Shown: positions 4,799 through 41,512 of the stretch, piece after piece
How positions within the stretch are numbered: the first letter of the stretch is position 1
Layout of the letters: each line of letters opens with the position of its first letter
NCBI GenBank assembly: GCA_001788925.1
Contig: MFXS01000036.1
Location: 19,223-81,338, forward strand
Direction: 5' to 3'
DNA length: 62,116 nt
Source: Candidatus Peribacteria bacterium RIFCSPHIGHO2_01_FULL_55_13
GTDB taxonomy: Bacteria; Patescibacteriota; Gracilibacteria; Peribacterales; Peribacteraceae
The notes under the pieces: model-generated
The model's database searches: none
What the model was told of the DNA's origin: nothing
What the model saw: only the letters and a program-made list of their open reading frames with translations
Program-made: the position numbers and the translations under genes

Positions 4799-7399
4799 TT
4801 AACGAACTATTCCTATACGATCCTCGATTTCTTGGTCCACGAACACCTTCTTCCGCCCGTACTTCATCCTGCTGTATTCCTTGATGAGCGCCGCAAGCTT
4901 GTCGTTGCGCGTAGATTCGTCGTAGATCGTGGACATGGAGAACGGCCGTGAGGTGACATTGTTGATGTTGAGCTTGCAGTAGCAGTTGAAGTTGGGAATG
5001 CCGATAGCGTCCTGGTCGGAAACCACGGGCGCCATTTCTTTCGCCATGTATTCGGCGTCCTCCGCGCCGATCTTGAAGCTCATGATGGTTCCCACGTTAC
5101 CGAACACCGCATCACGCATCTTGGTGCCGGCCTGACCGTAGGATTCGGTCTTGCCCACCAGCTGCCCGATATACTGGTGCGCCATGATGAGGGCGAGCTC
5201 GTACTTGCGGGCCTCGGAGAGAATGGTGGCGAAGGCGTCGGTGACGAAATTCTGGAACTCGTCGACGTAGAGATAGAAGCGCCGGCGCTGGGCGCGCGGC
5301 ACATCGGCGCGGGACATCGCGGCCATGTTCACCTTGTTCACGAAAATAAGGCCCAGAAGCTGCGCGTTCACATCGCCGATCTTTCCCTTGCTCAGGTTCA
5401 CCAAAAGCACCTTGCCGCTGTCCATCACTTCGCGGATGTTGAAAGCGGATTTCGGCTGCCCGATGATGTTGCGCATCGTGGTGTTCGTGATGAAGGGACC
5501 GAACTTCGAGCTGAAGTACGGGATCATTTCCTCTTTTTCGCGCTGTCCGGTCTTTGCAATTTCGTGCTCCCAGAAGCTTCGGACGACCACATTTCTGCAT
5601 TTGCTGACCTTGTACTTCTGGAATTCCTCGTCCACGAAGAGCCGGGGCACGTCGATGAGCGTGGCGCCCTCTTCTTCGTCGTCCATCAGCGTAAGGCATC
5701 CGTTGCGAAAGTAGTGCTGAATGCGCGGACCGAAGATCTCGTTGCCGAAGAGCTTCAAAAAGATTTCCATCGCGTCGAGCGAGGCGCGGTCTTTCTCTTC
5801 GGGTGTCTTGGCCTCGAGAAGATTGAGTCCCATCGGGCGCTGGCCGTCGGAAGGATCAAACACGATGATGTCTTTGGCGCGCTCCTTCGGCGTGTGCGCG
5901 AGCGCATCCTCGATGAGGTCGCCGTGCGGATCCACGATGCAGAGCCCGTCGCCGTTCGCGATATCCTGGCGTGACATCCAACTGATGAGCGAGGATTTTC
6001 CACAGCCGGATTTTCCGATGACGTAGTGGTGGCGCGTGCGGTCCTCTCCGCGGAAGCGGATTTTGGTCTCCACCGCGCGGTAACGGTTGATGCCGAGCAG
6101 GATGCCGTCCGGCGGAGCATCCGGCGGCGGAGGGAGCACGCGGTACGTGATCCACTGGATGATCGGCATCTTGTTGTAGCGGCTGTCCGGGAAGTGGTAG
6201 AGCCCGGCGAGTTCCTTCTCCGTGAGCATGCATTCCTTGTGCAGGTAACAGTTGACGCGATTCTTCCAGAGCCAGTGGATGACAGGCGCGTTCAGCGCGT
6301 GCGGCAGGAAATCGATGAACATCCGCTTGTTCACAAGCACGTTGCCGTAGAGATCCTTGAACGCGTTGAAAGCGACCTGAATGTTGTTGGTGAGTTCGGT
6401 GGCGCGCTGCGTGCTCTTGGATGACGCCATGATGCGGATGCTGGCGTGATAGAAACTCATGCCTCCCTTCTCCGCCATGCGCTTGTAGAGCTCTTCCTCC
6501 GGCTGCACCATGCGCACGAAGGAGTCGCCGCCTTTGGCGCCCGGGGCGTTGGTGCTGGAGGAGGTGAATTCGGAAAGGCCACTCAGGATGAACCCGAGCA
6601 CGGGGATATGCGCGAACATCCCCTCTTTCTTGCCCTTGAATCCCGCGCTCGCGGCGCGCTTGGTGTTCCTGTTCCACTTCTTGCTGAGAGCCGGCGTGAG
6701 CACGATCTGAATGGCGGCCACCTCATCACGCTCCATTTTGGAGAGCACGTTGGAAAGCCCGTTGAGCGGATCATCCTGCATGAATTCGTACGTGCGCAGC
6801 GGGTAGCAGAATTTCTTCTGAAACTTGAGGTAGTAACCGATCATGCTGTAGCCCTTGGGCCGCACTTCCGGCGTCGGCTCCAATGTCACCTCGGCATCGC
6901 CGTAGAAAGCGGTGATCTGTTTTTCCACGATGGAAATAAACTTCGGCTGCGTGACAACGAAGAACAGCAGCTGCCCCTTCTCCACGTACATCTCGAAGCT
7001 GATACGGATATCGCGTGTGATCCAGAAGTGGATGGACTGCCAGAAGTCGAGGTTGCGGACTTCCCAGAGCGCGCGATAGAGCTGCTCCATCACCGCGACT
7101 TTTTCTTTGAAATCTTTTTCCGTGCGCTTCTCCTGGTCGAGTTTCGTATCGGACCGCGGCAGCACCACCTTCATGGAAACGAGCTTGCGGCTTTCGAAGT
7201 GCGCCATCGCGAAGCGAATCACCCGCTTCACGATCGCCCAGGCGAAGTACAGCGAGGCGATGAAGACGGTGTTATTGACAGGATCCACCCGGTACCACTC
7301 CCACAGATCGATCCAGATATGGGCGTTGACGATCGTCGTACTGAGAGCGACGACGACCCACAGGAGCGGCCAGAAGAGGATGCGGAGGAGCGCGAGCAC
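4799..7399 (-). CDS. TraD/VirD4-like (type IV coupling protein-like) P-loop ATPase with N-terminal TM segments, paralog 1
   Basis: Walker A GKSGCGKSS, IVDPHGDL, Walker B FYLYVDEFQNF, MAHQY; GTG start; roughly 70% identical by eye to 39026-41512 across the compared C-terminal ATPase segment. Confidence 0.65.
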   Translation of the reverse strand: MLALLRILFWPLLWVVVALSTTIVNAHIWIDLWEWYRVDPVNNTVFIASLYFAWAIVKRVIRFAMAHFESRKLVSMKVVLPRSDTKLDQEKRTEKDFKEKVAVMEQLYRALWEVRNLDFWQSIHFWITRDIRISFEMYVEKGQLLFFVVTQPKFISIVEKQITAFYGDAEVTLEPTPEVRPKGYSMIGYYLKFQKKFCYPLRTYEFMQDDPLNGLSNVLSKMERDEVAAIQIVLTPALSKKWNRNTKRAASAGFKGKKEGMFAHIPVLGFILSGLSEFTSSSTNAPGAKGGDSFVRMVQPEEELYKRMAEKGGMSFYHASIRIMASSKSTQRATELTNNIQVAFNAFKDLYGNVLVNKRMFIDFLPHALNAPVIHWLWKNRVNCYLHKECMLTEKELAGLYHFPDSRYNKMPIIQWITYRVLPPPPDAPPDGILLGINRYRAVETKIRFRGEDRTRHHYVIGKSGCGKSSLISWMSRQDIANGDGLCIVDPHGDLIEDALAHTPKERAKDIIVFDPSDGQRPMGLNLLEAKTPEEKDRASLDAMEIFLKLFGNEIFGPRIQHYFRNGCLTLMDDEEEGATLIDVPRLFVDEEFQKYKVSKCRNVVVRSFWEHEIAKTGQREKEEMIPYFSSKFGPFITNTTMRNIIGQPKSAFNIREVMDSGKVLLVNLSKGKIGDVNAQLLGLIFVNKVNMAAMSRADVPRAQRRRFYLYVDEFQNFVTDAFATILSEARKYELALIMAHQYIGQLVGKTESYGQAGTKMRDAVFGNVGTIMSFKIGAEDAEYMAKEMAPVVSDQDAIGIPNFNCYCKLNINNVTSRPFSMSTIYDESTRNDKLAALIKEYSRMKYGRKKVFVDQEIEDRIGIVR

Positions 7400-18467: not shown

Positions 18468-18545
18468 TGGGGCGATCGATGGGATTTGAACCCACGACCC
18501 TCTGGACCACAACCAGATGCTCTAACCAACTGAGCTACGATCGCC
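18468..18545 (-). tRNA. tRNA-His (GTG) with encoded G-1 and CCA
   Basis: G-GCGATCG-TA-GCTC-AGTTGGTTA-GAGC-A-TCTGG-TTGTGGT-CCAGA-GGGTC-GTGGG-TTCAAAT-CCCAT-CGATCGC-C-CCA folds as a canonical cloverleaf; G-1 pairs with C73. Confidence 0.9.
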
Positions 18546-18621
18546 ATAGGAGAAGATGTTTTCCAATGAACAGAGTGCGAGCAGTGCCTTGTTAGATTAC
18601 GCCTCGCAAAGCGAGGCTGGG

Positions 18622-18641
18622 CCAACTGAGCTGCGATCGCC
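18622..18641 (-). pseudogene. Truncated duplicate of the tRNA-His 5' end (G-1 to D-loop)
   Basis: GGCGATCGCAGCTCAGTTGG then diverges. With 19 nt of upstream sequence, the 39-nt block 18622-18660 repeats 18526-18564 with 3 mismatches, offset 96 bp. Confidence 0.7.
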
Positions 18642-18796
18642 ATAGGAGAAGACATTTTCCGTAAAGAACGCCTGCCGATTGTAACGAATATTGGAACAGA
18701 GAGAAGGGCAATCGCAAAGGAAAGCATGTCTTCTTTCATGAGGATTCCCTCTCTGAAGAACGCATCTTAATATTTTTGGGTCGAACAATTTTAATA

Positions 18797-18859: not shown

Positions 18860-19720
18860 TTACTCTTCGTCTTCGTCTTCTTTTGGCCAGGCGATTTCTG
18901 GCGCCGGCACTCGCTTTTTGTACTTCGAACGCAGTTCAGCGAATAGCATCTGGTACAATGCCATATTGTGCCCCGATTGTCGCATTCTGACGCGATTGCC
19001 TTCTGCGGTATGCAGAAGGTCCTGCATCGTGACGCCCTTCAACTTGGTTCGAAGCAACTCATCATCGATGGTCACTCCGAATGCCTTCCAGAATTCATAC
19101 ACACCCCGAAGCGCTTCACGACGTAGCGCTTCCGGTTGGTTTGGAAAAAGCTCCCCTATGTACTGGAGAACCTCCAGCACAGCGAGCTCCCCCGACTGGT
19201 TGTAAATCCGGGTCAGTTGATCTATTGCCGTAACGTACGGCCAATTTTTCAACTTACTCGTGAGTCCAACCTTGAACCCAGCCTCGCGAACCGCCTTGTC
19301 GATAGCCACCGCGTGTGGCTCCTTCGCAACGAGCGAGGCGCGGAAACAGTCCATTACCGTCACGTTCGCGCGAAACTCATTCACGAATCGGAACAGCCTT
19401 GCCTCTTCTTCTCTCGAGGCGAAGTAGTGGATGAGACAGGGAACGACTGTTTTCCCTGCGATCTTAGCGCCCTTTGTGCGCTGTTGCGCGTCGATGAGGT
19501 ACAATTTACCATCATCACGGAGGGCAACTCTTGCCACTCCATACGCTCGTGGGTTGAAATTTGCGCCGATCATCTCGGCGACCGCGTTTTCTTCACGCTG
19601 GTAAGACTTGTCAACCAACAAGTCCTCGACTGGGACCATCCCAAACCACATGTTGTCTTCTTGGCTGTCGCCGAAACCTTTCAGGTTCAGTGAGAGCCAA
19701 TCCCTATTTGGCTTTTGCAT
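18860..19720 (-). CDS. ParB/Srx-fold N-terminal domain protein of the DGQ(Q/H)R type (DUF262/DndB-like)
   Basis: VDKSYQRE ... LYLIDAQQRTKG motif pair; helical C-terminal half; acidic tail EDEDEE. Confidence 0.6.
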   Translation of the reverse strand: MQKPNRDWLSLNLKGFGDSQEDNMWFGMVPVEDLLVDKSYQREENAVAEMIGANFNPRAYGVARVALRDDGKLYLIDAQQRTKGAKIAGKTVVPCLIHYFASREEEARLFRFVNEFRANVTVMDCFRASLVAKEPHAVAIDKAVREAGFKVGLTSKLKNWPYVTAIDQLTRIYNQSGELAVLEVLQYIGELFPNQPEALRREALRGVYEFWKAFGVTIDDELLRTKLKGVTMQDLLHTAEGNRVRMRQSGHNMALYQMLFAELRSKYKKRVPAPEIAWPKEDEDEE

Positions 19721-19805: not shown

Positions 19806-21206
19806 TTATTCTTCCTCCCCCTCCTCTTCGTCCTCCACCTCGCCCCCCTCTTCGTCCTTCTCTTCGTGCTTTGAGAAGCCCACTGCTGGTATATCATTTC
19901 GATGGACTTCACCCAGAGAATCATAAGACTGCCTATCCTTTAGATGGCAAAGGGGTTGGCCCTTACGCACACGTCGCTCCAAGGCCGCCAGTTTAGCGTC
20001 ACTCCCTGGCATACCCATTGAAGCAGGATAATCTTCTGGATCTAAGGGTTTTGGTTGCCAATCGAATATCCCATGAGCAGTTGCTGTTACAATAGTATGA
20101 TGCTCAAACTCTTGAGAATACACATCTTTATCGCCCTCCAATCCACTCCCCATGGGCTGTGCCGGTATTGTTGTGCGGCCACCTTTCAATTCTGCTACTA
20201 AATCTAATAAATACGTATTATCTTCTCCATAGGGGAAGAGATCCGGAGCGATTTCATGATTACTCATTCCAGCGAAGCCTATATGCTCTGCACTTGCATA
20301 TTCATGTACTGATAGCTCCAGTGCATCCATCACTTTTTGTAATTGCGCCTGAGCATCTGGAGCATGCTCCATTCTTATGAGACGTCTATATAAAACCATA
20401 TGCCGTAAATGCTGTATTTGAAGTTCTAAGAAATCATCGTTTAGCTTTTCCTTCAATGCAGCTAATCCATTTGCTTCTTCTGTCAGTAGTACAAGGGCCT
20501 CCAGTTCATCGGCACCCAGTACACTAATGTCCTGTTCATGAAGGAGTGCCCAGATTGTGTTGTCTGAAAGTCCCAGACGATCATGAAACTGTTGTCCCAA
20601 ACTGTCTTGGTACGTGAGAAGAATGCGCACAATATCACTGATACATATTGCATCCGATTCGGATATTTCCTGTGCTTTTCTTCTTGCCCGCCCTTGTATC
20701 GTCATCTGACTGAATCGGTGATTGATCGTTTCTCTCGCACTTCTCGGAATTCTTTTTATTTCCATTTTACTAAAACCTACAGCAGATTTGTCTACCCCCT
20801 CTCTGCAATCTCCATTGGTACCAGTGTGTACATTCTTGATTGCAAGTGGAGGCGCTTCACTATCCAGCACGTTTGCATACGCTGTATGCAAACCATATTT
20901 TTGTAATTCCAAATCAAAAGCAACCTCTAATTCATCCGCTTTAAAGAACGTATTACCTGTTACTATCTCTGCGAGAAGATTTTCTCTGATCGTTTCGCAA
21001 ACCTCTCTCAAGTCCTCTACAGAAAGTGCAGATGCTTTCAATGATTTGAGTCTGCCGAATTCTCGCAGTTCCGCTAATGCCATCCCCACCAACGTGGATG
21101 CAGAAGGTTCCGTATCCGCTGCTGAAACTTTTTCGCTATCCACGGGTACAGATGTGCCTCCAGTTTCTGCCGTGCTTGTAAGGTGTTGTCGATTCATAGT
21201 TTTCAT
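19806..21206 (-). CDS. Island protein A, unknown function, paralog of 21253-23061
   Basis: Shared blocks with B: GNTFFKADELEVAFDLEL, GFSKMEIKRIP, ISDIVRILLTYQDSLGQQFHDRLGL, MVLYRRLIRMEHA, SNHEIAPDLF; acidic tail EEKDEEGGEVEDEEEGEEE. Confidence 0.65.
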   Translation of the reverse strand: MKTMNRQHLTSTAETGGTSVPVDSEKVSAADTEPSASTLVGMALAELREFGRLKSLKASALSVEDLREVCETIRENLLAEIVTGNTFFKADELEVAFDLELQKYGLHTAYANVLDSEAPPLAIKNVHTGTNGDCREGVDKSAVGFSKMEIKRIPRSARETINHRFSQMTIQGRARRKAQEISESDAICISDIVRILLTYQDSLGQQFHDRLGLSDNTIWALLHEQDISVLGADELEALVLLTEEANGLAALKEKLNDDFLELQIQHLRHMVLYRRLIRMEHAPDAQAQLQKVMDALELSVHEYASAEHIGFAGMSNHEIAPDLFPYGEDNTYLLDLVAELKGGRTTIPAQPMGSGLEGDKDVYSQEFEHHTIVTATAHGIFDWQPKPLDPEDYPASMGMPGSDAKLAALERRVRKGQPLCHLKDRQSYDSLGEVHRNDIPAVGFSKHEEKDEEGGEVEDEEEGEEE

Positions 21207-21252: not shown

Positions 21253-23061
21253 CTAGGCACCCTTAGCTCCCCTTCGCTGGCTTTTCGGTTTCTTTGACCG
21301 TTCTTTCAAGAGTTTCAGTTCTTCTAGTATCTCCGCAAGATCCTCATCTGCACCATCATCTTCTTGCTCAAATAAGTCCGGTGCCAGATGGTGATTGCTC
21401 AATCCAAGGAATACCTTCCATTCTTTTGCTGCTAAAGCACTATCTTCCATACCTAAAACCTCCAGGATTTTTTCCAATTTCTCTTCATGGTCATGCGCAT
21501 GTTCCAGTCGTAGTAAGCGACGATACAGTACCATCCGTGGCGTACTGTCTCTCCTCATCTGCTCTGGCTCCTCGTCGCCATTTTTTGCTGACTCAATAGC
21601 TGCAAGTTCGCCTGCAAGTTTAGGCATTGCGTCTGCTTCAGCCTGCGTGAGGAGACTATAGTCATGATCCTGTATCACTTTCCATACGAGCCCGTCTGGC
21701 ATCCCCAAGCGTTCACGAAATTGGCTCCCCAGAGTGTCTTGATGTGTAAGAACAATGCGAGCGATATCACAGAGCACTGCTGCATCAGGTTCTGTAAAAC
21801 TCTGAAATACTCTCAACGCAGCCCCTTCAACAGACAATTTATGAAACAAATCGTTGAGTCGTGCCCTGTCCTCGCACGGTATTCGAGCGATCTCCGCTTT
21901 CGTAAAGCCTTTTGTGGATGCGTCTTTTTGTGTGTCTTCTTCCTCAGTCTTCTTTGTTATATTTCTTGCACTTAAGGTCGTCTCACGTGCTTTTATGCAC
22001 TTTTTATAGCGAGAACCCAACTTGTACTCCGTAATCCTGATTTCAAATGCAACGTCAAATTCGCTTGCATCAAACACCGTGTTGCCACTTGCTATCTCTG
22101 CATGTACTTCGTCTTCGATACAAGCAAACACCAGTGACCATGCATTCGCATTGTCACTCTGTGCATGCTGTAACAAAATCTTTCCTGTTGTTTTAAGCTC
22201 ATGCAGCGCTCTCGCTGCAAAATCATAGTTTTCTCTCGCATTTCTCTCAGAGCGAAAGGCCTGGTAGGGAACACACGTTGGAAGTTTTTGCCTGACCTTG
22301 TGCTCCTCTCCGGCAGGAGCGACCCGATCGACCGCTGCAAAAATGCTCATCATTCTATCCGGGTCTCGTAATGCCTTCCTCCACGAGACGCCATCGATGA
22401 TATCATTGTCACCATCGGGAGAATCCTCATACACCGCTGGCTCATACGGTCGTGAAACACGGGTAGACTTTTCTATAGCAGGATCGCTCGCTCGCCCATT
22501 TCCAGAAACTTGATGTTGCTCAGGCGCTTGCCGGGGTCGTTGTTTCGCGGCAGCAGACTGCTTCGCATGCGCACGGTTGTTTTTTGCCGGCTTGAGATCC
22601 TCCGCTGCTGCACCTTCGGGAATTCTCCCGGCAATAATCTGCATCAGATGAGTGATAGTTTCATTGACCGCTTTTTTGCAAAGATCGTGTACTCGAACAT
22701 TCATCATCTTACTTTTCTTCGCTGTCCCACCATCTCTTGCCTCAGCCAGTACTGTTCGTACTCTTTTACCAAAACGTCTCGCATCCCCGATCGTTTCAAT
22801 GCCTGGACCTGTTGTCGTTGCATCAGAAATCCCTAAAGTCTTTTCAAGATTCTGTCTTAAAAGCCCCATCTTCCCCCTGCTCGGTTGCAACTCTTTTGCA
22901 CCAGCCGAGTGTGGTGGAAATAATTCGCCTAAGACCCCCACAATAGCATCATAGTGCTGATAGAGCAGTTCAGACAGAACCTCCAAAGGAATGGGCTCTG
23001 TAAGCTTCACATTATTTCGTAAGCCAGGAAAACATTCTTCAGTTACAAATATTTTTCCCAT
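21253..23061 (-). CDS. Island protein B, unknown function, paralog of 19806-21206 with about 300 aa of N-terminal extension
   Basis: GNTVFDASEFDVAFEIRI, GFTKAEIARIP, CDIARIVLTHQDTLGSQFRERLGM, MVLYRRLLRLEHA, SNHHLAPDLF. Confidence 0.65.
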   Translation of the reverse strand: MGKIFVTEECFPGLRNNVKLTEPIPLEVLSELLYQHYDAIVGVLGELFPPHSAGAKELQPSRGKMGLLRQNLEKTLGISDATTTGPGIETIGDARRFGKRVRTVLAEARDGGTAKKSKMMNVRVHDLCKKAVNETITHLMQIIAGRIPEGAAAEDLKPAKNNRAHAKQSAAAKQRPRQAPEQHQVSGNGRASDPAIEKSTRVSRPYEPAVYEDSPDGDNDIIDGVSWRKALRDPDRMMSIFAAVDRVAPAGEEHKVRQKLPTCVPYQAFRSERNARENYDFAARALHELKTTGKILLQHAQSDNANAWSLVFACIEDEVHAEIASGNTVFDASEFDVAFEIRITEYKLGSRYKKCIKARETTLSARNITKKTEEEDTQKDASTKGFTKAEIARIPCEDRARLNDLFHKLSVEGAALRVFQSFTEPDAAVLCDIARIVLTHQDTLGSQFRERLGMPDGLVWKVIQDHDYSLLTQAEADAMPKLAGELAAIESAKNGDEEPEQMRRDSTPRMVLYRRLLRLEHAHDHEEKLEKILEVLGMEDSALAAKEWKVFLGLSNHHLAPDLFEQEDDGADEDLAEILEELKLLKERSKKPKSQRRGAKGA

Positions 23062-23136
23062 TTTTCATAATTAGACAATAAAATACAAAATAGAGTAGTG
23101 CGATAGAGTACTATCGCAGAAAGCGGTTATCAAACG

Positions 23137-23187
23137 CTTCTCTCATGAAATAGTCGCTGCAGGTAAACCTACAGCGACTGAGAGAAG
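23137..23187 (-). ncRNA. Long bulged hairpin directly abutting the 3' end of tRNA-like element 1
   Basis: CTTCTCTCA-tgaaat-AGTCGCTGCAGG-taaa-CCTACAGCGACT-GAGAGAAG (plus-strand reading); a further hairpin TGCGATAG-AGTA-CTATCGCA is at 23099-23118. Confidence 0.5.
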
Positions 23188-23258
23188 TGGACTCGACGGG
23201 AATCGGACCCGCACCCAAGACCTTGCGAGCCTTGATGCTACCGTTACACTACGAGCCC
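23188..23258 (-). ncRNA. tRNA-like element 1: full cloverleaf, GCA at the anticodon position, G3.U70, non-canonical C33 and C55, no CCA
   Basis: GGGCTCG-TA-GTGT-AACGGTA-GCAT-C-AAGGC-TCGCAAG-GTCTT-GGGT-GCGGG-TCCGATT-CCCGT-CGAGTCC-A; coordinates +/-1 nt. Confidence 0.55.
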
Positions 23259-23341
23259 ATTTCATGGCAAAATTCTACAAACAAGTCCTATTCCCTTTCA
23301 AGAAAATAGTGGCTTAAATTGTCCACAATGACGAACGGAAG

Positions 23342-23414
23342 CGGACCCGACGGGGATCAATCCCGTACACATGGGCTGATGACTCCTCGTGCTCCTTGAA
23401 AGCACTACGGTCCC
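23342..23414 (-). ncRNA. tRNA-like element 2: degenerate cloverleaf with poor anticodon stem, G3.U70, T-loop ATTGATC
   Basis: GGGACCG-TA-GTGC-TTTCAAGGA-GCAC-G-AGGAG-TCATCAG-CCCAT-GTGT-ACGGG-ATTGATC-CCCGT-CGGGTCC-G; shares 5' (GGGnnCGTAGTG) and 3' (CGGG..GAT.CCCGTCGnGTCC) blocks with element 1. Confidence 0.45.
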
Positions 23415-23458
23415 TGTTTTGAGTTCCTGCGACGAAATATTGACGCACTACATTTTTT

Positions 23459-24241
23459 ATGTACTATTATTACATGAACGACCGAATAGACAGGATCCGA
23501 GCGGCAGAAAAAGCAGATCCTCTGTACGGAAGATCTGCAGCAAGAGAGATTGTTGAAGGTGGCGAGAGGACTCGAAATGTGAGAATGAGAATAAAGAGAT
23601 TGGTGGAATCTGGAGATTACTCACTTGAAAAAATTGCTCAAAAAATACGACCAGATTTAGAAAAACTGGGACTGATTACTCTAACTGCGGAAAATGATCC
23701 TTCCACCTCTGACACTGTTGACACTCCCCCCTCTGACGCAGACGCAATAGAGGATGGTGAAGCGGAAGAAAAAGAAACGGTGGCACGTAAAGAAAAACCT
23801 GATCCTGTCATTCGTTCGATTAAAGATCTCATTCGAAGAGTCGCCGATGTGGTATGCAACCCTGAAAAAAGAAAAAAAGCTTCTACAAAACTACGCAGGG
23901 ATAGCGTACAAAAGCACGCTGATACTATTCGTAAAGCAAGGAATAAGAAATTGGAAGAAAATGGAATGTTTGTCTGGACAGAGGAACACGTTACCTATTT
24001 TAGAAAGCTGCTAAATGATGAGAAGTATTTCCGTCCAATATCGAAGAGAACAAAAACGAGGAGATACAATCACACAGCGTTATGTTGGGCTATGAATAGA
24101 AAATTCAACACTGTGCGATTTGACGAAGATGCTACACGCAATAAATTAGACGTTCTCAATACTCAAGCAAGAAAAGAGGATCGAAAGAGGCGGAGTGAGA
24201 ATAAAGAGGAGGAGATTGGGGAGGAAGAGAAAGAGAGTTAA
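23459..24241 (+). CDS. Island protein C, unknown function, paralog of 24272-25054
   Basis: C-terminal block WTEEHVTYFRKLLN...YNHTALCWAMNRKFNTVRFDEDATRNKL is shared with D; acidic/basic tail. Confidence 0.6.
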   Translation: MYYYYMNDRIDRIRAAEKADPLYGRSAAREIVEGGERTRNVRMRIKRLVESGDYSLEKIAQKIRPDLEKLGLITLTAENDPSTSDTVDTPPSDADAIEDGEAEEKETVARKEKPDPVIRSIKDLIRRVADVVCNPEKRKKASTKLRRDSVQKHADTIRKARNKKLEENGMFVWTEEHVTYFRKLLNDEKYFRPISKRTKTRRYNHTALCWAMNRKFNTVRFDEDATRNKLDVLNTQARKEDRKRRSENKEEEIGEEEKES

Positions 24242-24271: not shown

Positions 24272-25054
24272 ATGAACAATACGTTGGTGGACCGAGATGA
24301 GGCTCCGGTTCGTCCCAAAATCACCGATGAAGTTCGTGAAAGATTGAGAGCGCAAACCTCCAAGTCGCAAAAAGCAATGATGATTGCTGTCTATGATTTA
24401 GCAAAACCGCCTGACAGTTTAGATTTGGAAGGAGATAGTGCTGTGAGTATCCGAGATGCAGCTGAGTTGTATGATGTAAATCATGTGACAGTGTATAAGG
24501 CTTTTTGGATTCTTTCGAAAAGTAGAGAGCTGACAGAAGCTGTATTACGTGGAGAGCTGACGGTTGGAAAAGCTGAAGCTCAGTTGAAAGCAACTTCATC
24601 AAAGCCAGGATCAGATACGGAAGGTATTCCTCTTTCAACAGAAGTTGCAGGTGTTGCGCAGCGTATTGCAGATCTCGTTATGACAAAAGAGGGAGAGTCT
24701 GTCCTCGCAGAAGTGAATCACCTTCTCCATCAAGCATTGCACAAGCTTGAACGTGGTGATCCATCGAACTCTGATTTTATGGATGACGATGAGAGGACAT
24801 TATGGAAGCCAGAGCAGGTTGAATATTTTAAAAAGTTGCTAAATCGTAGGGATGGTAGGTATTTAAGAAAACAGTTAAAAAGCACTAAAAGAAAGGCAGA
24901 TTCCATTCAGCAATATAATCACATAGCGTTATCTTGGGCTATGAATAATAAATTCAAAACTTTGCGATTTGACGAAGATGCTACACGAAGAAAATTGAAT
25001 AGAATGCGTACACAGGAAAGAGTAGAGCGATTAAGAAGCGCAGAAGTGGAATGA
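24272..25054 (+). CDS. Island protein D, ParB/KorB-type HTH-like N-region plus the C/D shared C-terminal block
   Basis: SIRDAAELYDVNHVTVYKAFWILSKSRELTEAVLRGELTVGKAEAQL resembles the ParB HTH segment; WKPEQVEYFKKLLN...YNHIALSWAMNNKFKTLRFDEDATRRKL. Confidence 0.6.
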   Translation: MNNTLVDRDEAPVRPKITDEVRERLRAQTSKSQKAMMIAVYDLAKPPDSLDLEGDSAVSIRDAAELYDVNHVTVYKAFWILSKSRELTEAVLRGELTVGKAEAQLKATSSKPGSDTEGIPLSTEVAGVAQRIADLVMTKEGESVLAEVNHLLHQALHKLERGDPSNSDFMDDDERTLWKPEQVEYFKKLLNRRDGRYLRKQLKSTKRKADSIQQYNHIALSWAMNNKFKTLRFDEDATRRKLNRMRTQERVERLRSAEVE

Positions 25055-25788: not shown

Positions 25789-25857
25789 AATGGCTTATTA
25801 TACCTTATAAATGGCTTTTTCTCTACCTGTGAGAGTATTGCGTTTATAAGAAATCCC

Positions 25858-25908
25858 AAGGGCGCAAGGGCCAAGGGCCAACATCATGTGCCCTTGGCCC
25901 TTGGCCCT
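25858..25908. repeat. Heptad/octad-word hairpin family 5 (AAGGGCC/AAGGGCGC words)
   Basis: AAGGGCGCAAGGGCCAAGGGCCA-acatcatgt-GCCCTTGGCCCTTGGCCCTT; divergent spacer immediately upstream of hisS. Confidence 0.8.
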
Positions 25909-25932
25909 TTCACTGGTAGGATTTTTTCTTGT

Positions 25933-38829: not shown

Positions 38830-38886
38830 GTAGGGGCATATTCGCTTGGACGGGCGACGATGCGCAAGAAAATGGCCTGAGCAAAA

Positions 38887-38975
38887 GAGACCAAGGAGAC
38901 CGGGGAAACCAAGGAACAGATGCAACACAAGTGCAGCGCCTGTTCCTTGGTTTCCTTGGTCTCGCTGGTTTCCCC
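38887..38975. repeat. Heptad-word hairpin family 8 (GGAGACC/GGAAACC/AAGGAAC words)
   Basis: GAGACCAAGGAGACCGGGGAAACCAAGGAACAG ... CTGTTCCTTGGTTTCCTTGGTCTCGCTGGTTTCCCC; inner 16 bp perfect; second family copy at 61283-61375. Confidence 0.8.
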
Positions 38976-39008
38976 TCAGAATATTGAGGCGCAGGGAAGC
39001 CCAAATTC

Positions 39009-39017
39009 TGCTATACT
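39009..39017 (+). promoter_or_regulatory. Putative extended -10 (TGcTATACT) 8 nt upstream of ATG 39026
   Basis: TGCTATACT ggtacgat ATG; no Shine-Dalgarno; the spacing implies a leaderless or near-leaderless mRNA. Confidence 0.35.
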
Positions 39018-39025
39018 GGTACGAT

Positions 39026-41512
39026 ATGCCCATCGAGAACCTCGTGATCGCCTTCGGCGCGCTACTCGGCCTTGTCGCTGCGGCGTTTGCGGCGCTGGAG
39101 CTCATGCATGTGCTTCATGACCGCCATCGCGAACGCGATCTGGTGTTTCTCCAGGTCGTGATGCCTAAAAAGGAAAGCAAAGAGGACAAGGAGATTGAAT
39201 CCGAGCAGTTTTCCTCCGGCCGCGACTTCCGCGAAGTCATCGGCGTGATGGACCACCTCTTCCAGTCGCTCCATAGCATTCGGAGCCCCAAGATTTCCAC
39301 TCTCTGGACGGGCCAGCACTTTATCGCCGTGGAATACGCTGCGCTTGCCGGGGAAATCCTCTTCTACGTCGTCTGCCCGCGGCCCATCGTGCATCTCCTG
39401 GAAAAGCAGATCACGTCGTTTTACCCCGACGCGGTGATCGACACGGTGGAGGACTACAACATCTTTACGGACGCTTCCATCGTCGCCGCTCAGCAGCTCC
39501 TCCCCACGAAGCCCTTCACGTCTTCCATCAAAACCTATCAGCAGCTCAAGAGCGATCCGCTCAACGCCATCACCAACGCCTTCTCCAAATTCAAAGTGAC
39601 CGAAGGCGCTGCGGTGCAAATCGTGCTGCGGCCGGTAAAAGCCGGATGGCAGCAGAAGCTGCATAAAGAAGCACAGAAGATCATCAATCCTAAAAAGGGC
39701 GGAAGCGGTTCGCTTCTGAATCCCCTCACCTGGATCCGCGCGGTCTTTGACATGTTCACGACCGGAAAGTCCGATGATACGGAGAAAGAGCACTCCACCG
39801 GCGAGCGTGTCTCGCAGCTTGTAGAGGAGTACAGCAAATCCATCGACGAGAAAGCGGGCAACCCCGGCTACACGGCAGTCATCCGCCTGCTCACGTCGGC
39901 GGAAAGCATGCCCCGGGCGCAGCAGCTTCTGGACGGTGTTGTCGCCTCGTTCGGGCAATTCAGCCAGATGCAGGGAAACAGCCTGCGAACCGTGCGCATG
40001 CCGAACCGCAGGGGAATCATCGAGCAGTTCATCCGCAGGAGCCCGCGCAGGCTTCTGAGCGCCGCGCTCCTTTCCCGCAAAATGCTCCTCGGCACCGGGG
40101 AACTGGCGTCGCTCTGGCACTTCCCAAGCATCAAGTACAACAAGATGGACACGATCAAGTGGCAGAACTACAAGTTCGCTCCCGCGCCGAAAAATGTTCC
40201 CGCCGACGGCATGTTTTTGGGCATGAACGCCTACCGCGGTGAGAAGCGCAAGATCTACATGAACAACGAAGACCGCTTCCGCCACTTCTACATCATCGGA
40301 CAAACCGGTACGGGTAAGTCTTCGATCATCCAGCTCATGGCCCGGCAGGATTTCCACAGCGGCAAAGGGCTCTGCATCATCGATCCCCACGGGTCGTTGA
40401 TCGAAGACCTCATGCCCTACATCCCGCGTGAACGAGCGAATGATGTCATCTACTTCAATCCCTCGGACATGGAACGCCCGATGGGTCTGAACCTCCTCGA
40501 AGGAAAGACGCCCGAGGAGCGTGACCTCATCGCTCTTGATGCCATGAACATGATGGTGAAGATGTTCGGCGAGGAGATCTTCGGACCGCGCATCCAGGAC
40601 TACTTCCGTAACGGCTGTCTCACGCTGATGGAAGATGAGGAAGAAGGCGGCGCCATCACGGACCTTGTAAAGCTCTTCACGGACGACGAATGGCAGAAAT
40701 ATAAAGTGAGCAAGGTGAAAAACCCGATTGTGCGCTCGTTCTGGGAAAAGCAGATGGCAAATACCGGGCAGCGCGAAAAGCAGGAAATGATCCCGTACTT
40801 CGCCGCCAAGTTCGGTCAGTTCTATACCAACACCCTGATCCGCAACATCGTCGGCCAGACCAAAAGCGCCTTCGACATCGCCGACTGCATGGACAAGGGG
40901 AAAATCCTGCTGATGAACCTCTCCAAAGGTCTCATCGGCGACATCAACTCGCAACTCCTCGGTATGATCGTCGTGAACAAGATCCAGGTCGCCGCCATGC
41001 GTCGCCAGCGACTAGATACCAAGGCGCGCCGCGACTTCTTCCTCTACATCGACGAATTCCAGAACTTCGTGACGCCATCAATCGAGTCGATTCTCTCCGA
41101 AGCGCGCAAGTACCGCCTCGGCCTGATCCTCGCCCACCAGTACCTCGACCAGCTCGAGAAGGACAGCAAGCTCTCGGGCAATGTGAGTCTTAAAGGCGCA
41201 ATCTTCGGCAACGTCGGCACAATGATGTTCTATAAGATCGGCCCCCAGGACGCTGAAGTCTGCGCCAAGGAAATGGCACCGGCGTTCTCGGAACAGGATC
41301 TTGTGAACATGGACGCCTTCAAGGGCGCCATGAAGCTCTCCATCGACGGCCAGCCCAGCCGCCCCTTCAGCATCGATGTCCCCCGCCCGTGGATGGATAC
41401 GACCTACCCCAAGGACGCCCAGGCCGCGGAAGCCTTCAAGCAATTGAGCAGATTGACGTACGGCAGACAGAGAGATTTCGTAAGCCGGGAGATTTTGCGA
41501 CGTATTGGGTGA
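39026..41512 (+). CDS. TraD/VirD4-like P-loop ATPase with N-terminal TM segment, paralog 2
   Basis: GQTGTGKSS, IIDPHGSL, FFLYIDEFQNF, LAHQY; start at MPIENLVIAFGALLGLVAAAF. Confidence 0.65.
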   Translation: MPIENLVIAFGALLGLVAAAFAALELMHVLHDRHRERDLVFLQVVMPKKESKEDKEIESEQFSSGRDFREVIGVMDHLFQSLHSIRSPKISTLWTGQHFIAVEYAALAGEILFYVVCPRPIVHLLEKQITSFYPDAVIDTVEDYNIFTDASIVAAQQLLPTKPFTSSIKTYQQLKSDPLNAITNAFSKFKVTEGAAVQIVLRPVKAGWQQKLHKEAQKIINPKKGGSGSLLNPLTWIRAVFDMFTTGKSDDTEKEHSTGERVSQLVEEYSKSIDEKAGNPGYTAVIRLLTSAESMPRAQQLLDGVVASFGQFSQMQGNSLRTVRMPNRRGIIEQFIRRSPRRLLSAALLSRKMLLGTGELASLWHFPSIKYNKMDTIKWQNYKFAPAPKNVPADGMFLGMNAYRGEKRKIYMNNEDRFRHFYIIGQTGTGKSSIIQLMARQDFHSGKGLCIIDPHGSLIEDLMPYIPRERANDVIYFNPSDMERPMGLNLLEGKTPEERDLIALDAMNMMVKMFGEEIFGPRIQDYFRNGCLTLMEDEEEGGAITDLVKLFTDDEWQKYKVSKVKNPIVRSFWEKQMANTGQREKQEMIPYFAAKFGQFYTNTLIRNIVGQTKSAFDIADCMDKGKILLMNLSKGLIGDINSQLLGMIVVNKIQVAAMRRQRLDTKARRDFFLYIDEFQNFVTPSIESILSEARKYRLGLILAHQYLDQLEKDSKLSGNVSLKGAIFGNVGTMMFYKIGPQDAEVCAKEMAPAFSEQDLVNMDAFKGAMKLSIDGQPSRPFSIDVPRPWMDTTYPKDAQAAEAFKQLSRLTYGRQRDFVSREILRRIG

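What the first reader, a model, noticed from the sequence alone, without database searches (positions are those of the whole stretch)
23099..23414. Pair of degenerate tRNA-like RNAs with G3.U70 and non-canonical loops between the divergent island operons
On the minus strand, 23258-23188 folds into a complete cloverleaf: a 7-bp acceptor, D arm, 5-bp anticodon stem and T arm. It has several departures from a normal tRNA:
- C at position 33 instead of the near-universal U;
- T-loop TCCGATT (C55);
- no encoded CCA;
- GCA at the anticodon position, combined with a G3.U70 pair, which is the principal alanyl-tRNA synthetase identity element.

23414-23342 is a diverged copy with the same 5' and 3' sequence blocks and the same TC-NNN-AG loop frame (TCATCAG). 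It also has G3.U70, but with an A4xG69 mismatch, only 3/5 anticodon-stem pairs and T-loop ATTGATC.

Element 1 is directly followed by a hairpin of about 21 bp (23187-23137) and then another hairpin (23118-23099), just before the start of protein B. The two elements are therefore probably not ordinary decoding tRNAs. Possibilities (inference only) are decoys or substrates for a tRNA-targeting enzyme, processing signals for the operon transcript, or primers or attachment relics of a mobile element.
Basis: seen in the sequence. Interest (0 to 1): 0.7.

Follow-up and report, generated by a model that had tools for sequence, protein, structure and literature searches.

The report
Island-borne hybrid alanine/cysteine tRNA gene
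One of the two elements is a real, conserved but odd tRNA gene carried on a variable genomic island of a few groundwater Peribacteria: its amino-acid end looks like alanine tRNA and its anticodon reads cysteine codons; the other element is a decayed copy.

Summary
Element 1 (23258-23188, minus strand) is called tRNA-Cys(GCA) by ARAGORN and scores 46.9 bits on Rfam tRNA (threshold 29). The neighbouring tRNA-His scores 69.5. All the oddities are real: G3.U70, A73, C33, T-loop UCCGAUU and no encoded CCA.

Element 1 has its own sigma-70 promoter and a conserved terminator hairpin. It lies next to the same orphan gene "A" in three related Peribacterales lineages. Across these lineages the acceptor and T stems never vary. 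The anticodon stem changes through pair-preserving substitutions. Overall identity is only 83-91%, whereas tRNA-His is 100% identical. So it is a selected but fast-evolving tRNA that travels with a low-GC island. That island sits beside tRNA-His in two lineages and beside tRNA-Glu in the third.

Its identity elements are those of alanine tRNA on a cysteine anticodon. The most likely reading is a hybrid-identity tRNA charged by AlaRS and handicapped for decoding. This is inferred, not shown.

Element 2 (23414-23342) occurs only in this species and no general detector calls it. It has broken pairs and no promoter, so it is probably a pseudogene.

I could not test whether the genome has a separate canonical tRNA-Cys, whether CCA is added, or whether the RNA is expressed.

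The parts
23188..23258 (-). Element 1: 71-nt non-canonical tRNA gene. Anticodon GCA, G3.U70, A73, C33, T-loop UCCGAUU, no encoded CCA.
   Evidence: ARAGORN. Rfam tRNA 46.9 bits. Orthologues in three further sequence variants with all 21 pairs kept.
23342..23414 (-). Element 2: 73-nt degenerate paralogue of element 1, probably a pseudogene. It keeps G3.U70 but has mismatches at 4:69, 28:42 and 30:40 and the T-loop AUUGAUC.
   Evidence: No call by ARAGORN or Rfam. 38.8 bits on the family model R1. Lies inside a stretch (about 23312-23419) with no counterpart in L042, L011 or L045.
23272..23301 (-). Sigma-70-type promoter of element 1: TTGAAA-18 nt-TAGAAT. The -10 hexamer ends 13 nt before G1.
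   Evidence: Promoter scan, 10 of 12 matches. The same hexamers are seen in L011 and L042; a weaker TAGAGT -10 is seen in L045.
23137..23187 (-). Hairpin directly after element 1, read as its transcription terminator. The inner 12-bp stem is GUCGCUGUAGG-UUUA-CCUGCAGCGAC. The T-run is weak in this species and strong in L045.
   Evidence: -31.8 kcal/mol, z -7.5. Inner stem conserved in three lineages with pair-preserving changes.
23099..23118 (-). Second small hairpin (8 bp). It lies between the candidate -35 and -10 hexamers of the B promoter and is not conserved in sequence in the sister lineages.
   Evidence: -11 kcal/mol, z -4.4. By eye there is no equivalent hairpin in L042.
23105..23133 (-). 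Candidate promoter of the B operon: -35 TTGATA inside the conserved GGTTGATAACC block, with a -10 candidate TACTCT.
   Evidence: Read by eye. The TTGATAACC block is conserved upstream of B in the window, L011/L042 and L013. The scan tool did not call it.
23440..23467 (+). Promoter of gene A (TTGACG-16 nt-TACTAT), divergent from the element-1 promoter. It implies that A starts at the second ATG (23474) on a leaderless mRNA.
   Evidence: Promoter scan. The database version of A is 255 aa.
23459..24241 (+). Gene A: orphan helical protein, possibly DNA-binding. It is the divergent neighbour of element 1 in every lineage that has the tRNA.
   Evidence: No Pfam, PADLOC or PDB match.
24272..25054 (+). 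Gene A': a 30%-identical paralogue of A, present only in this species.
21253..23061 (-). Gene B: orphan 602-aa protein downstream of element 1.
   Evidence: Only three protein clusters among 5.8 billion. No family match.
19806..21206 (-). Gene B': paralogue of B, 35% identical.
18860..19720 (-). ParB-like DUF6551 protein, the last gene of the island operon.
   Evidence: Pfam PF20188, E 2e-18. PHROG ParB-like.
18468..18544 (-). Canonical tRNA-His(GUG) with encoded CCA. It marks one edge of the low-GC island.

Best explanation
**What element 1 is.** It is a genuine, independently transcribed and selectively maintained tRNA gene. It is cargo of a low-GC variable genomic island found in only a few Peribacterales (Candidate Phyla Radiation bacteria).

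**Hybrid identity.** The acceptor end carries the alanine determinants G3.U70, A73, G1-C72 and G2-C71. It lacks the cysteine determinants U73 and C3-G70. The anticodon loop is the cysteine one (GCA), with C33 in place of the universal U33.

**Proposed mechanism.** Only the first step (transcription signals) has sequence support; the later steps are inferred.
1. The gene is transcribed from its own promoter and terminated at the conserved hairpin.
2. The transcript is matured and receives CCA.
3. It is charged with alanine by AlaRS rather than with cysteine by CysRS.
4. C33 (and C55 in most variants) make it a poor ribosomal substrate. It would therefore either insert alanine at UGY cysteine codons at a low, possibly regulated level, or serve as an alanyl donor outside translation.

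The divergently transcribed orphan gene A is the best candidate for its regulator or partner.

**What element 2 is.** It is a decayed paralogue with no function of its own.
For: **It is a real tRNA gene (shown)**
- It is called by two independent detectors.
- It has a 10-of-12 sigma-70 promoter.
- It is followed by a conserved, covarying hairpin.

**It is under selection (shown)**
- It is present next to gene A in four sequence variants from three lineages.
- All 63 pair cells across the three full-length variants form standard pairs.
- Two anticodon-stem pairs changed on both sides and two more switch between G-C and G.U.
- A fourth variant lost one G and one C from opposite strands of the stem, which keeps a helix.
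- Of the 14 variable columns, none falls in the 24 acceptor and T-stem positions (P about 0.001).
- Outside the tRNA-plus-hairpin block, the window and L045 share no detectable similarity on that side.

**It is not an ordinary housekeeping tRNA (shown)**
- Identity between lineages is 83-91%, whereas tRNA-His is 80/80 identical and host genes are 86-92% identical.
- It lies in a 45-47% GC island inside a 55-60% GC genome.
- The island is at a different locus, with a different gene order, in the third lineage.
- A pattern scan of 185,579 species genomes found this tRNA in only two other Peribacterales.

**Identity (sequence shown, charging inferred)**
- Published bacterial determinants are U73, C3-G70 and GCA for Cys, and G3.U70, A73 and G2-C71 for Ala (PMC9976931).

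**Precedent**
- Natural mistranslating tRNAs typically lack U33. This is thought to throttle decoding (PMC11415595).
Against: - No expression or aminoacylation data exist.
- I could not scan the rest of the genome, so this may be the organism's only tRNA-Cys.
- The gene lacks an encoded CCA, whereas both canonical tRNA genes seen in these loci encode it.
- The published annotation of the related Ca. Peribacter riflensis lists only a sub-threshold CCA-adding enzyme hit. If CCA cannot be added, the RNA cannot be charged at all.
- Only three or four independent sequences are available. The covariation measures were reached by 54 of 500 shuffles, so they are not significant on their own.
- Conservation of the five loop bases UCGCA is not significant at this depth (my estimate).
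- Terriglobia chromosomes carry tRNAs with G3.U70 and A73 but Arg or Asp anticodons in housekeeping neighbourhoods. The step from 'G3.U70 plus A73' to harmful alanine misincorporation may therefore be too simple.
- No aminoacyl-tRNA-using enzyme was found in the island or the window.
Confidence: 0.5

Rival explanations
1. Element 1 is simply the organism's working tRNA-Cys, either the only one or an extra copy. It is charged by CysRS, and its oddities are lineage quirks. An extra copy could help decode the unusually cysteine-rich Peribacteria proteome.
For: - ARAGORN calls it tRNA-Cys and it passes the Rfam threshold.
- The GCA anticodon is kept in all variants.
- Ca. Peribacter riflensis has CysRS and a proteome with 1.67% cysteine and giant Cys-rich proteins (PMC4736985).
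- No other tRNA-Cys is visible in any stretch I could read.
- The L045 variant has a normal UUCGAUU T-loop.
Against: - U73, the universal major CysRS determinant, is replaced by A73, and C3-G70 by G3.U70.
- Between lineages it diverges by 9-17%, while tRNA-His is identical.
- It sits in a low-GC orphan-gene island that occupies different loci in different lineages.
- The pattern scan found it in only 2 further species genomes.
- It lacks the encoded CCA of the canonical tRNAs nearby.
Confidence: 0.2
2. Element 1 is a tRNA-shaped RNA or DNA element that is never aminoacylated. It could be a regulatory or structural RNA of the island, a target or decoy for an island protein such as A, or a recombination site kept at the DNA level.
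For: - There is no encoded CCA and no confident CCA-adding enzyme in the related annotated genome.
- C33 and C55 weaken the two most conserved tRNA loops.
- It is strictly adjacent to orphan gene A, with divergent promoters.
- The islands lie beside tRNA genes, and tRNA-end repeats are nearby.
- Irregular tRNA-like genes linked to toxin-antitoxin or transposable elements, and inactive in translation, have been described in Acidobacteria (PMC5389517).
Against: - All four stems are kept, including compensatory changes in the anticodon stem. A DNA-level site would not need this.
- It has its own promoter and terminator.
- It is a full-length cloverleaf, not the partial repeat typical of attachment sites. 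No copy sits at an island border.
- No integrase, reverse transcriptase or tRNA-acting enzyme was detected in the island.
Confidence: 0.2
3. Both elements are decaying tRNA pseudogenes captured by the island, and neither is functional.
For: - Element 2 clearly fits: three broken pairs, no promoter, one species only, not recognised by detectors.
- In L011/L012 the island genes B, B' and the ParB-like gene are frameshifted or truncated. The tRNA there has lost two bases and falls below the Rfam threshold.
- C33, C55 and U70 are each one transition away from the canonical base.
Against: - For element 1, no substitution occurs in 24 acceptor and T-stem positions (P about 0.001), while 13 of the other 39 positions vary.
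- Every stem substitution preserves pairing.
- The promoter and terminator are conserved.
- Even the two-base loss in L011 is balanced across the stem.
Confidence: 0.07

Closest known systems
tRNA-ProX dual-identity tRNAs of Streptomyces and Kitasatospora (tRNAProA/N/T with ProRSx)
   Same: A bacterial tRNA of normal 7/5 cloverleaf shape that combines the acceptor identity of one amino acid with the anticodon of another. The universal U33 is replaced (A33 there, C33 here). Some variants here may also have the unusual A15-A48 pair and a non-A21. The gene is accessory and restricted to a narrow clade (PMC11415595).
   Different: The identity here is alanine rather than proline, and the anticodon is cysteine. 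No dedicated synthetase paralogue lies next to it. It occurs in a CPR bacterium inside an orphan-gene island. Mistranslation has not been shown.
Allo-tRNAs carrying G3:U70 from Acidobacteria (Mukai et al. 2017)
   Same: Natural bacterial tRNAs with the AlaRS determinant G3:U70 on non-alanine anticodons (GCG, UUA). They inserted alanine in E. coli and are often associated with mobile or toxin-antitoxin contexts. Some relatives are inactive (PMC5389517; PMC7609411).
   Different: Allo-tRNAs have an 8/4 or 9/3 acceptor/T branch and a long variable arm. Element 1 is a plain 7/5 cloverleaf with a 4-nt variable loop.
Engineered tRNA-Cys with G3:U70 (Hou and Schimmel 1988) and human tRNA-Cys(GCA) G3:U70 variants
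   Same: The same combination: a cysteine-anticodon tRNA carrying G3:U70. In those cases the pair is sufficient for alanine acceptance (cited in PMC11415595 and PMC9976931).
   Different: Those are laboratory constructs or rare human alleles with U33, and the bacterial construct has U73. This one is a conserved natural bacterial gene with A73 and C33.
Reassigning tRNA-Ala species with non-alanine anticodons (Ashbya mitochondrial tRNA-Ala(UAG), Chlorophyta mitochondrial tRNA(CCU))
   Same: G3:U70 plus A73 on a foreign anticodon (PMC7609411).
   Different: Those replace the normal decoder and reassign the codon in a small organelle genome. Here the lineage has CysRS and uses cysteine heavily, so full reassignment is very unlikely.
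Non-proteinogenic tRNA-Gly of Staphylococcus, used for cell-wall cross-bridges (my own knowledge, not checked here)
   Same: A chargeable tRNA kept out of translation by changes in the T-loop and elsewhere. C55 here, and G55 in several related odd tRNAs (L028, L034, L056), recall their altered T-psi-C sequence.
   Different: Those keep the cognate anticodon and work with Fem transferases. No Fem- or MprF-type enzyme is annotated in the related genome or found in the window.

Membership tests
Elongator tRNA (Rfam RF00005) | Cloverleaf scoring at or above the curated gathering score | tested here: met
   Element 1 scores 46.9 bits against a threshold of 29, full length 1-71. Element 2 gives no match at E<=10.
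Elongator tRNA (Rfam RF00005) | U33 and the T54-psi55-C56 T-loop | tested here: not met
   C33 in all four variants. UCCGAUU (C55) in three of four variants; UUCGAUU in the L045 variant.
Elongator tRNA (Rfam RF00005) | A 3' CCA end, either encoded or added | tested here: inconclusive
   CCA is not encoded (A73 is followed by CUUC). It is encoded in the neighbouring tRNA-His and tRNA-Glu. Whether a CCA-adding enzyme exists is unknown; the related genome's annotation has only a sub-threshold hit.
Bacterial tRNA-Cys | Anticodon G34 C35 A36 | tested here: met
   GCA in all variants.
Bacterial tRNA-Cys | Discriminator U73 (the major CysRS determinant) | tested here: not met
   A73 in all variants. 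Determinant list from PMC9976931.
Bacterial tRNA-Cys | Acceptor pairs G2-C71 and C3-G70 | tested here: not met
   G2-C71 is present, but position 3:70 is G.U.
tRNA-Ala (AlaRS substrate) | G3.U70 wobble pair | tested here: met
   G.U at 3:70 in all element-1 variants and in element 2.
tRNA-Ala (AlaRS substrate) | A73 and G2-C71 | tested here: met
tRNA-Ala (AlaRS substrate) | Minor bacterial determinants G4-C69 and G20 | tested here: not met
   C4-G69. Position 20 is U in the window and C in the other variants.
tRNA-Ala (AlaRS substrate) | Alanine anticodon (NGC) | tested here: not met
   The anticodon is GCA. A shifted register that would read CGC does not keep the stem, and the closing pair covaries C-G/G-C around the 7-nt loop UCGCARR.
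tRNA-Ala (AlaRS substrate) | Actual charging with alanine | not testable with these tools
   Needs an in vitro or in vivo aminoacylation assay.
Natural dual-identity (mistranslating) tRNAs such as tRNA-ProX | Acceptor identity of one amino acid combined with the anticodon of another | tested here: met
   By sequence only.
Natural dual-identity (mistranslating) tRNAs such as tRNA-ProX | A dedicated synthetase paralogue encoded alongside | tested here: not met
   The island has no synthetase. The adjacent HisRS is the housekeeping gene, syntenic with Ca. P. riflensis.
Natural dual-identity (mistranslating) tRNAs such as tRNA-ProX | Demonstrated misincorporation | not testable with these tools
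   Needs a reporter assay with mass spectrometry.
Allo-tRNA | 8/4 or 9/3 acceptor/T branch and a long variable arm | tested here: not met
   7-bp acceptor stem, 5-bp T stem and 4-nt variable loop.
tRNA-derived attachment-site relic of an integrative element | A partial tRNA copy (usually the 3' part) repeated at the island borders | tested here: not met
   Elements 1 and 2 are full length, internal to the island and only 84 nt apart. The real border-type repeats nearby belong to tRNA-His (18622-18660) and tRNA-Glu (L013 2484/2630).

The most novel reading that the evidence does not exclude
Element 1 may be one member of an overlooked, cross-phylum class of ordinary-shaped (7/5) tRNAs. These carry the alanine acceptor end (G3.U70, A73) on non-alanine anticodons:
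- Cys GCA in Peribacterales;
- Val-like GAC with 3-bp anticodon stems in other CPR bacteria;
- Arg GCG, Asp GUC and Leu GAG in Terriglobia.

They often also have a non-U base at position 33, 37 or 55. On this reading they are charged by AlaRS and either produce programmed, throttled alanine misincorporation or act as alanyl donors outside the ribosome.
Probability: 0.2. Interest if true: 0.8.

Novelty: new variant of a known kind. Interest (0 to 1): 0.55.

Why it matters
- Natural tRNAs whose charging identity and anticodon disagree are rare. They are the clearest evidence that cells sometimes encode mistranslation on purpose.
- The known bacterial cases involve proline or serine identity, or unusual cloverleaf shapes.
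- A conserved, normally shaped tRNA with alanine identity, a cysteine anticodon and C33, in a Candidate Phyla Radiation bacterium with an unusually cysteine-rich surface proteome, would be a new and directly testable case. The gene can be synthesised, charged with AlaRS or CysRS, and expressed with a Cys-codon reporter.
- If it instead proves to be the lineage's only tRNA-Cys, that would overturn the universality of U73 for cysteine identity. That would matter too.
- The result also warns annotators that a 'tRNA-Cys' call in these genomes may not mean cysteine.

Tried and rejected
**Island proteins (no function found)**
- Pfam, PADLOC and PHROGs gave nothing for A, A', B, B' or the membrane protein. 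Only the ParB-like DUF6551 protein matched.
- AlphaFold models were poor: pLDDT 63 for A and 53 for B.
- Foldseek of A against the PDB gave nothing below E = 2, so I did not search B.
- A profile search of 1.84 billion proteins found about 23 remote relatives of A's C-terminal domain. They have no Pfam annotation, and the one context I could read was uninformative.

**Other searches**
- The viral-contig scan gave one chance match that is not a tRNA.
- No direct repeats mark the island ends apart from the tRNA-His 5' duplicate.

**Does a relative have a canonical tRNA-Cys?**
- I tried the supplementary gene table of Ca. Peribacter riflensis. The stored text is cut about 60 kb before the genome end and also lacks tRNA-Phe, so the absence of a 'tRNA (Cys)' row proves nothing.

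**Ideas rejected**
- A shifted anticodon register reading CGC (alanine): the stem would not pair.
- Allo-tRNA membership: the shape is wrong.
- Co-transcribed processing signal for B: the tRNA has its own promoter and terminator, and its position next to B is not conserved.

**A caveat on folding**
- Minimum-free-energy folding does not return the cloverleaf for these sequences (6-8 kcal/mol worse than the optimum). This is common for unmodified tRNA sequences, and I did not count it against the structure.
Full report
**1. What is in the sequence**

Read on the minus strand, 23258-23188 is:

GGGCUCG UA GUGU AACGGUA GCAU C AAGGC UCGCAAG GUCUU GGGU GCGGG UCCGAUU CCCGU CGAGUCC A

- ARAGORN calls it tRNA-Cys(GCA).
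- The Rfam tRNA model aligns it end to end at 46.9 bits, above the gathering score of 29.
- The score is middling. The canonical tRNA-His 4.7 kb away scores 69.5 bits, and a tRNA-Glu in a related locus scores 58.4.

Element 2 (23414-23342) is reported neither by ARAGORN nor by Rfam at E<=10.
- A covariance model built from the three full-length orthologues of element 1 scores it at 38.8 bits (E about 1e-7). This is a little above tRNA-His on the same model (33.3 bits).
- Three pairs are flagged as non-standard.
- It is 65% identical to element 1.

Both hairpins are real:
- 23187-23137 folds at -31.8 kcal/mol (z = -7.5).
- 23118-23099 folds at -11 kcal/mol (z = -4.4).

**2. Where it sits**

The window comes from a groundwater Peribacterales genome (Candidate Phyla Radiation).
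- The same proteins are encoded on Rifle aquifer contigs and on MFXZ01000001.1 of GCA_001788995.1.
- Gene order around the locus matches Ca. Peribacter riflensis.

GC content drops from 55-60% to 45-47% between about 18.6 and 25.8 kb. This island lies between tRNA-His (18468-18544) and the housekeeping HisRS gene. It holds only orphan genes, plus one ParB-like gene:
- minus strand: B (602 aa), its paralogue B' (466 aa) and a ParB-like DUF6551 protein;
- plus strand: A and its 30%-identical paralogue A' (260 aa each);
- minus strand: a membrane protein of 238 aa.

B and A each have only three clusters of relatives among 5.8 billion proteins. In Ca. P. riflensis the stretch between hisS and tRNA-His holds about 16 kb of different genes. 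This interval is therefore a variable hot spot.

**3. Related loci**

Look-ups of the relatives of A and B, plus DNA pattern scans, recovered three lineages:
- the window's own species (L001-L010, tRNA identical);
- a Hainich/other groundwater lineage (L011, L012, L021, L042-L044);
- a second Rifle lineage (L013, L014, L037, L045-L052).

Element 1 is present in all of them as four sequence variants. It is always the divergent neighbour of gene A.

The rest of the arrangement is not fixed.
- In the window and in L042 the order is ParB-B'-B-tRNA / A.
- In L045/L051 the tRNA and A are followed by ParB-B'-B in the opposite relative orientation.
- In that lineage the whole island lies beside tRNA-Glu and a PemK-SocA toxin-antitoxin pair, instead of between hisS and tRNA-His.

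Element 2, with about 35 flanking bases, has no counterpart in either sister lineage. Gene A' is also absent from both.

**4. Is element 1 under selection?**

Over the three 71-nt variants, all 63 pair cells form standard pairs.
- Two anticodon-stem pairs changed on both sides: A-U to G-C at 27:41, and C-G to G-C at 30:38 (columns of the 71-nt alignment).
- Two more pairs switch between G.U and G-C.
- With three sequences the shuffle control is not significant (54 of 500 shuffles reach the observed values).

The distribution of change is significant.
- Of the 14 variable columns, none lies in the 24 acceptor and T-stem positions, and only one lies in the T-loop.
- Thirteen lie in the D, anticodon and variable regions.
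- The hypergeometric P is about 0.001.

The fourth variant (L011/L012) has lost one G and one C from opposite strands of the anticodon stem, so a 5-bp helix remains.

The flanking signals are conserved too.
- The promoter TTGAAA-18-TAGAAT is a 10-of-12 match and recurs in the Hainich lineage; L045 has a weaker version.
- The inner 12-bp stem of the downstream hairpin is kept in all three lineages, with U.G / C-G / U-A at one pair and A-U / G-C at another. In L045 it is followed by AUUUUUG. I read it as the terminator of the tRNA gene.
- Between the window and L045 the only detectable similarity on this side of gene A is the 132-nt block of hairpin, tRNA and -10 region.

At the same time the gene evolves fast for a tRNA.
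- Identity between lineages is 83-91%.
- Between the window and L042, tRNA-His is identical over 80 of 80 bases. Host genes are 86-92% identical and island DNA is 73-84% identical.

The pattern is a sequence-constrained acceptor/T minihelix, a structure-constrained but sequence-free anticodon stem, and free loops. This is not a neutral pseudogene. It is also not how a housekeeping tRNA behaves between close relatives.

**5. What identity does it have?**

| Feature | Cys determinants (bacteria) | Ala determinants (bacteria) | Element 1 |
|---|---|---|---|
| Discriminator | U73 | A73 | A73 |
| Pair 2:71 | G2-C71 | G2-C71 | G2-C71 |
| Pair 3:70 | C3-G70 | G3.U70 | G3.U70 |
| Pair 4:69 | (none) | G4-C69 (minor) | C4-G69 |
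| Position 20 | (none) | G20 (minor) | U or C |
| Anticodon | G34 C35 A36 | not recognised | GCA |

The determinant lists are from PMC9976931. So the RNA has the two strongest alanine elements and lacks the strongest cysteine acceptor element, while keeping the cysteine anticodon.

- Introducing G3:U70 into tRNA-Cys is the classic way to make it accept alanine. Human tRNA-Cys(GCA) G3:U70 variants are listed as alanine mischargers (PMC11415595).
- The 7-nt loop register is fixed, because its closing pair covaries (C-G in the window and L045, G-C in L042). A shifted reading as alanine CGC is therefore excluded.
- Replacement of U33 is a recurrent trait of natural mistranslating tRNAs: G33 in Candida tRNA-Ser(CAG) and A33 in Streptomyces tRNA-ProX. 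It is thought to throttle decoding.
- The L042 and L045 variants may also share with tRNA-ProX an A15-A48 pair and a non-A21. I read this by eye.

**6. Most likely mechanism, and its weak points**

I commit to this reading. Element 1 is an island-borne hybrid-identity tRNA.
- It is transcribed from its own promoter, possibly under control of the divergent gene A.
- It is charged by AlaRS.
- It is handicapped for the ribosome by C33 (and by C55 in most variants).
- It therefore either substitutes alanine at UGY codons at a low level or supplies alanine to a non-ribosomal acceptor.

Transcription signals, structure, conservation and identity elements are shown. Maturation, charging and decoding are inferred.

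The weak points are these.
- The gene does not encode CCA, whereas tRNA-His and tRNA-Glu do. The annotation of Ca. P. riflensis lists only a sub-threshold 131-aa hit for a CCA-adding enzyme.
- I could not scan the rest of the genome for a canonical tRNA-Cys.
- No aminoacyl-tRNA-dependent enzyme was found.
- The Terriglobia tRNAs described in section 8 show that G3.U70 plus A73 on a foreign anticodon can sit stably in housekeeping neighbourhoods. Its consequences may therefore be milder, or different, than simple misincorporation.

**7. Element 2 and the hairpins**

Element 2 is best explained as a decayed paralogue.
- It is specific to one lineage and has three broken pairs and a T-loop AUUGAUC.
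- No promoter was found on its strand, and general models do not recognise it.
- It is more diverged from element 1 (65%) than the element-1 orthologues are from each other. It may therefore have arrived with A' from a second, divergent island copy. A and A' share an 84-nt patch of 88% identity despite 30% protein identity.

The large hairpin is the tRNA's terminator.

The small hairpin lies between the conserved TTGATA (-35) and a -10 candidate of the B promoter. It is not conserved in sequence. B thus appears to have its own promoter, which argues against the tRNA being a processing signal for the B transcript. Read-through past the weak T-run in this species remains possible.

**8. A wider class?**

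The pattern GGGNNCGUAGUG...CCCGUCGNGUCC was scanned over 185,579 species genomes, and a stricter version over JGI metagenomes. The hits were as follows.
- One ordinary archaeal tRNA-Ala(GGC).
- About 20 Terriglobia tRNAs of 70-73 nt with G3.U70, in nearly all cases A73, and anticodons GCG, GUC or GAG. Several have U or C at position 37.
- CPR tRNAs with a UUGACA loop, called Val(GAC), with only three good anticodon-stem pairs.
- Single odd tRNAs in a Saccharibacteria genome and a gammaproteobacterial genome. L028, L034 and L056 have G55.

These score 42-63 bits on the element-1 model and 43-47 bits on Rfam tRNA. The Terriglobia genes lie next to housekeeping genes. The shared end blocks were imposed by the search pattern, so common descent is not shown. 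The recurrence of the alanine acceptor end on non-alanine anticodons is still striking and was not followed up.

**9. Comparison with what is known, and verdict**

- It works most like the dual-identity tRNAs (tRNA-ProX, and allo-tRNAs with G3:U70). It is a member of neither: there is no partner synthetase, and the cloverleaf is 7/5, not 8/4 or 9/3.
- It fails the defining acceptor features of tRNA-Cys.
- It fails the anticodon and minor determinants of tRNA-Ala.
- I found no description of a bacterial alanine-identity tRNA with a cysteine anticodon in the paper library.
- I rate it a new variant of a known kind, with moderate interest. It is a concrete, cheap-to-test candidate for encoded Cys-to-Ala ambiguity in an organism with an unusually cysteine-rich proteome. 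It currently rests on sequence inference alone.

Noticed in passing
window 18622-18660 versus 18526-18564: A 39-nt direct repeat (92% identical) duplicates the first 19 nt of tRNA-His plus 20 nt of its leader, 96 nt upstream of the real gene. In the sister lineage (L042, L011) the tRNA-His gene is inverted relative to its flanks, and the 179-aa gene beside it is replaced by other genes. This suggests recombination at tRNA-His.
   Followed up: partly
L016-L041 (e.g. L016 2933-3004, L017 6051-6123, L027 2031-2102): About 20 Terriglobia (Acidobacteria) genomes carry a 70-73-nt tRNA with acceptor GGGCCCG/CGGGUCC (G3.U70), in nearly all cases A73, and non-alanine anticodons: GCG, GUC or GAG. The anticodon stems are often irregular or position 37 is U or C. 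They lie next to housekeeping genes (UvrD, aconitase, M24 peptidase).
   Followed up: partly
L053 1019-1090, L055 714-785, L056 460-531, L033 6987-7058, L028 7015-7086, L034 453-525: Other CPR and unrelated metagenome tRNAs have the same alanine-type acceptor end but different anticodon arms. Some have a UUGACA loop with only three good anticodon-stem pairs; others have UAA or CGA anticodons. L028, L034 and L056 have G55 in the T-loop. Each has a strong promoter and terminator.
   Followed up: partly
window 24064-24147 versus 24913-24996: Genes A and A' are only 30% identical as proteins, yet they share an 84-nt stretch of 88% nucleotide identity in the conserved C-terminal domain. This suggests gene conversion or very strong constraint.
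   Followed up: no
L011 9463-13200 and L012 (same region): In this strain group the island genes B, B' and the ParB-like gene are frameshifted or truncated. The tRNA has a balanced loss of one G and one C from its anticodon stem and drops below the Rfam threshold. The island appears to be decaying there.
   Followed up: partly
L013 2484-2502 and 2630-2648 (= L045 9077-9095 and 8931-8949): The last 19 nt of tRNA-Glu(CUC), including its CCA, are repeated exactly 146 nt downstream, at the edge of the island in this lineage. This looks like an attachment-site scar.
   Followed up: partly
window 25848-25927: A long imperfect palindrome (34-nt arms, 79% complementary, rich in GGGCC repeats) lies between the island's membrane-protein gene and the likely true start of hisS. 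Its function is unknown; it could be a terminator or a regulatory hairpin.
   Followed up: no
window 23459-23474: The -10 hexamer of the gene A promoter lies inside the first codons of the longest ORF. A probably starts at the second ATG (23474) on a leaderless mRNA.
   Followed up: partly
window 4799-7399 and 38846-41512: Two paralogous VirD4/TraG-like type IV coupling proteins lie in one 62-kb stretch, together with a T4SS-pilin-like gene near 11.2-12.3 kb.
   Followed up: no
Ca. Peribacter riflensis supplementary table (PMC4736985): The published annotation has no confident CCA-adding enzyme and a short AlaRS of 617 aa. Both bear on how tRNAs are matured and charged in this lineage.
   Followed up: partly
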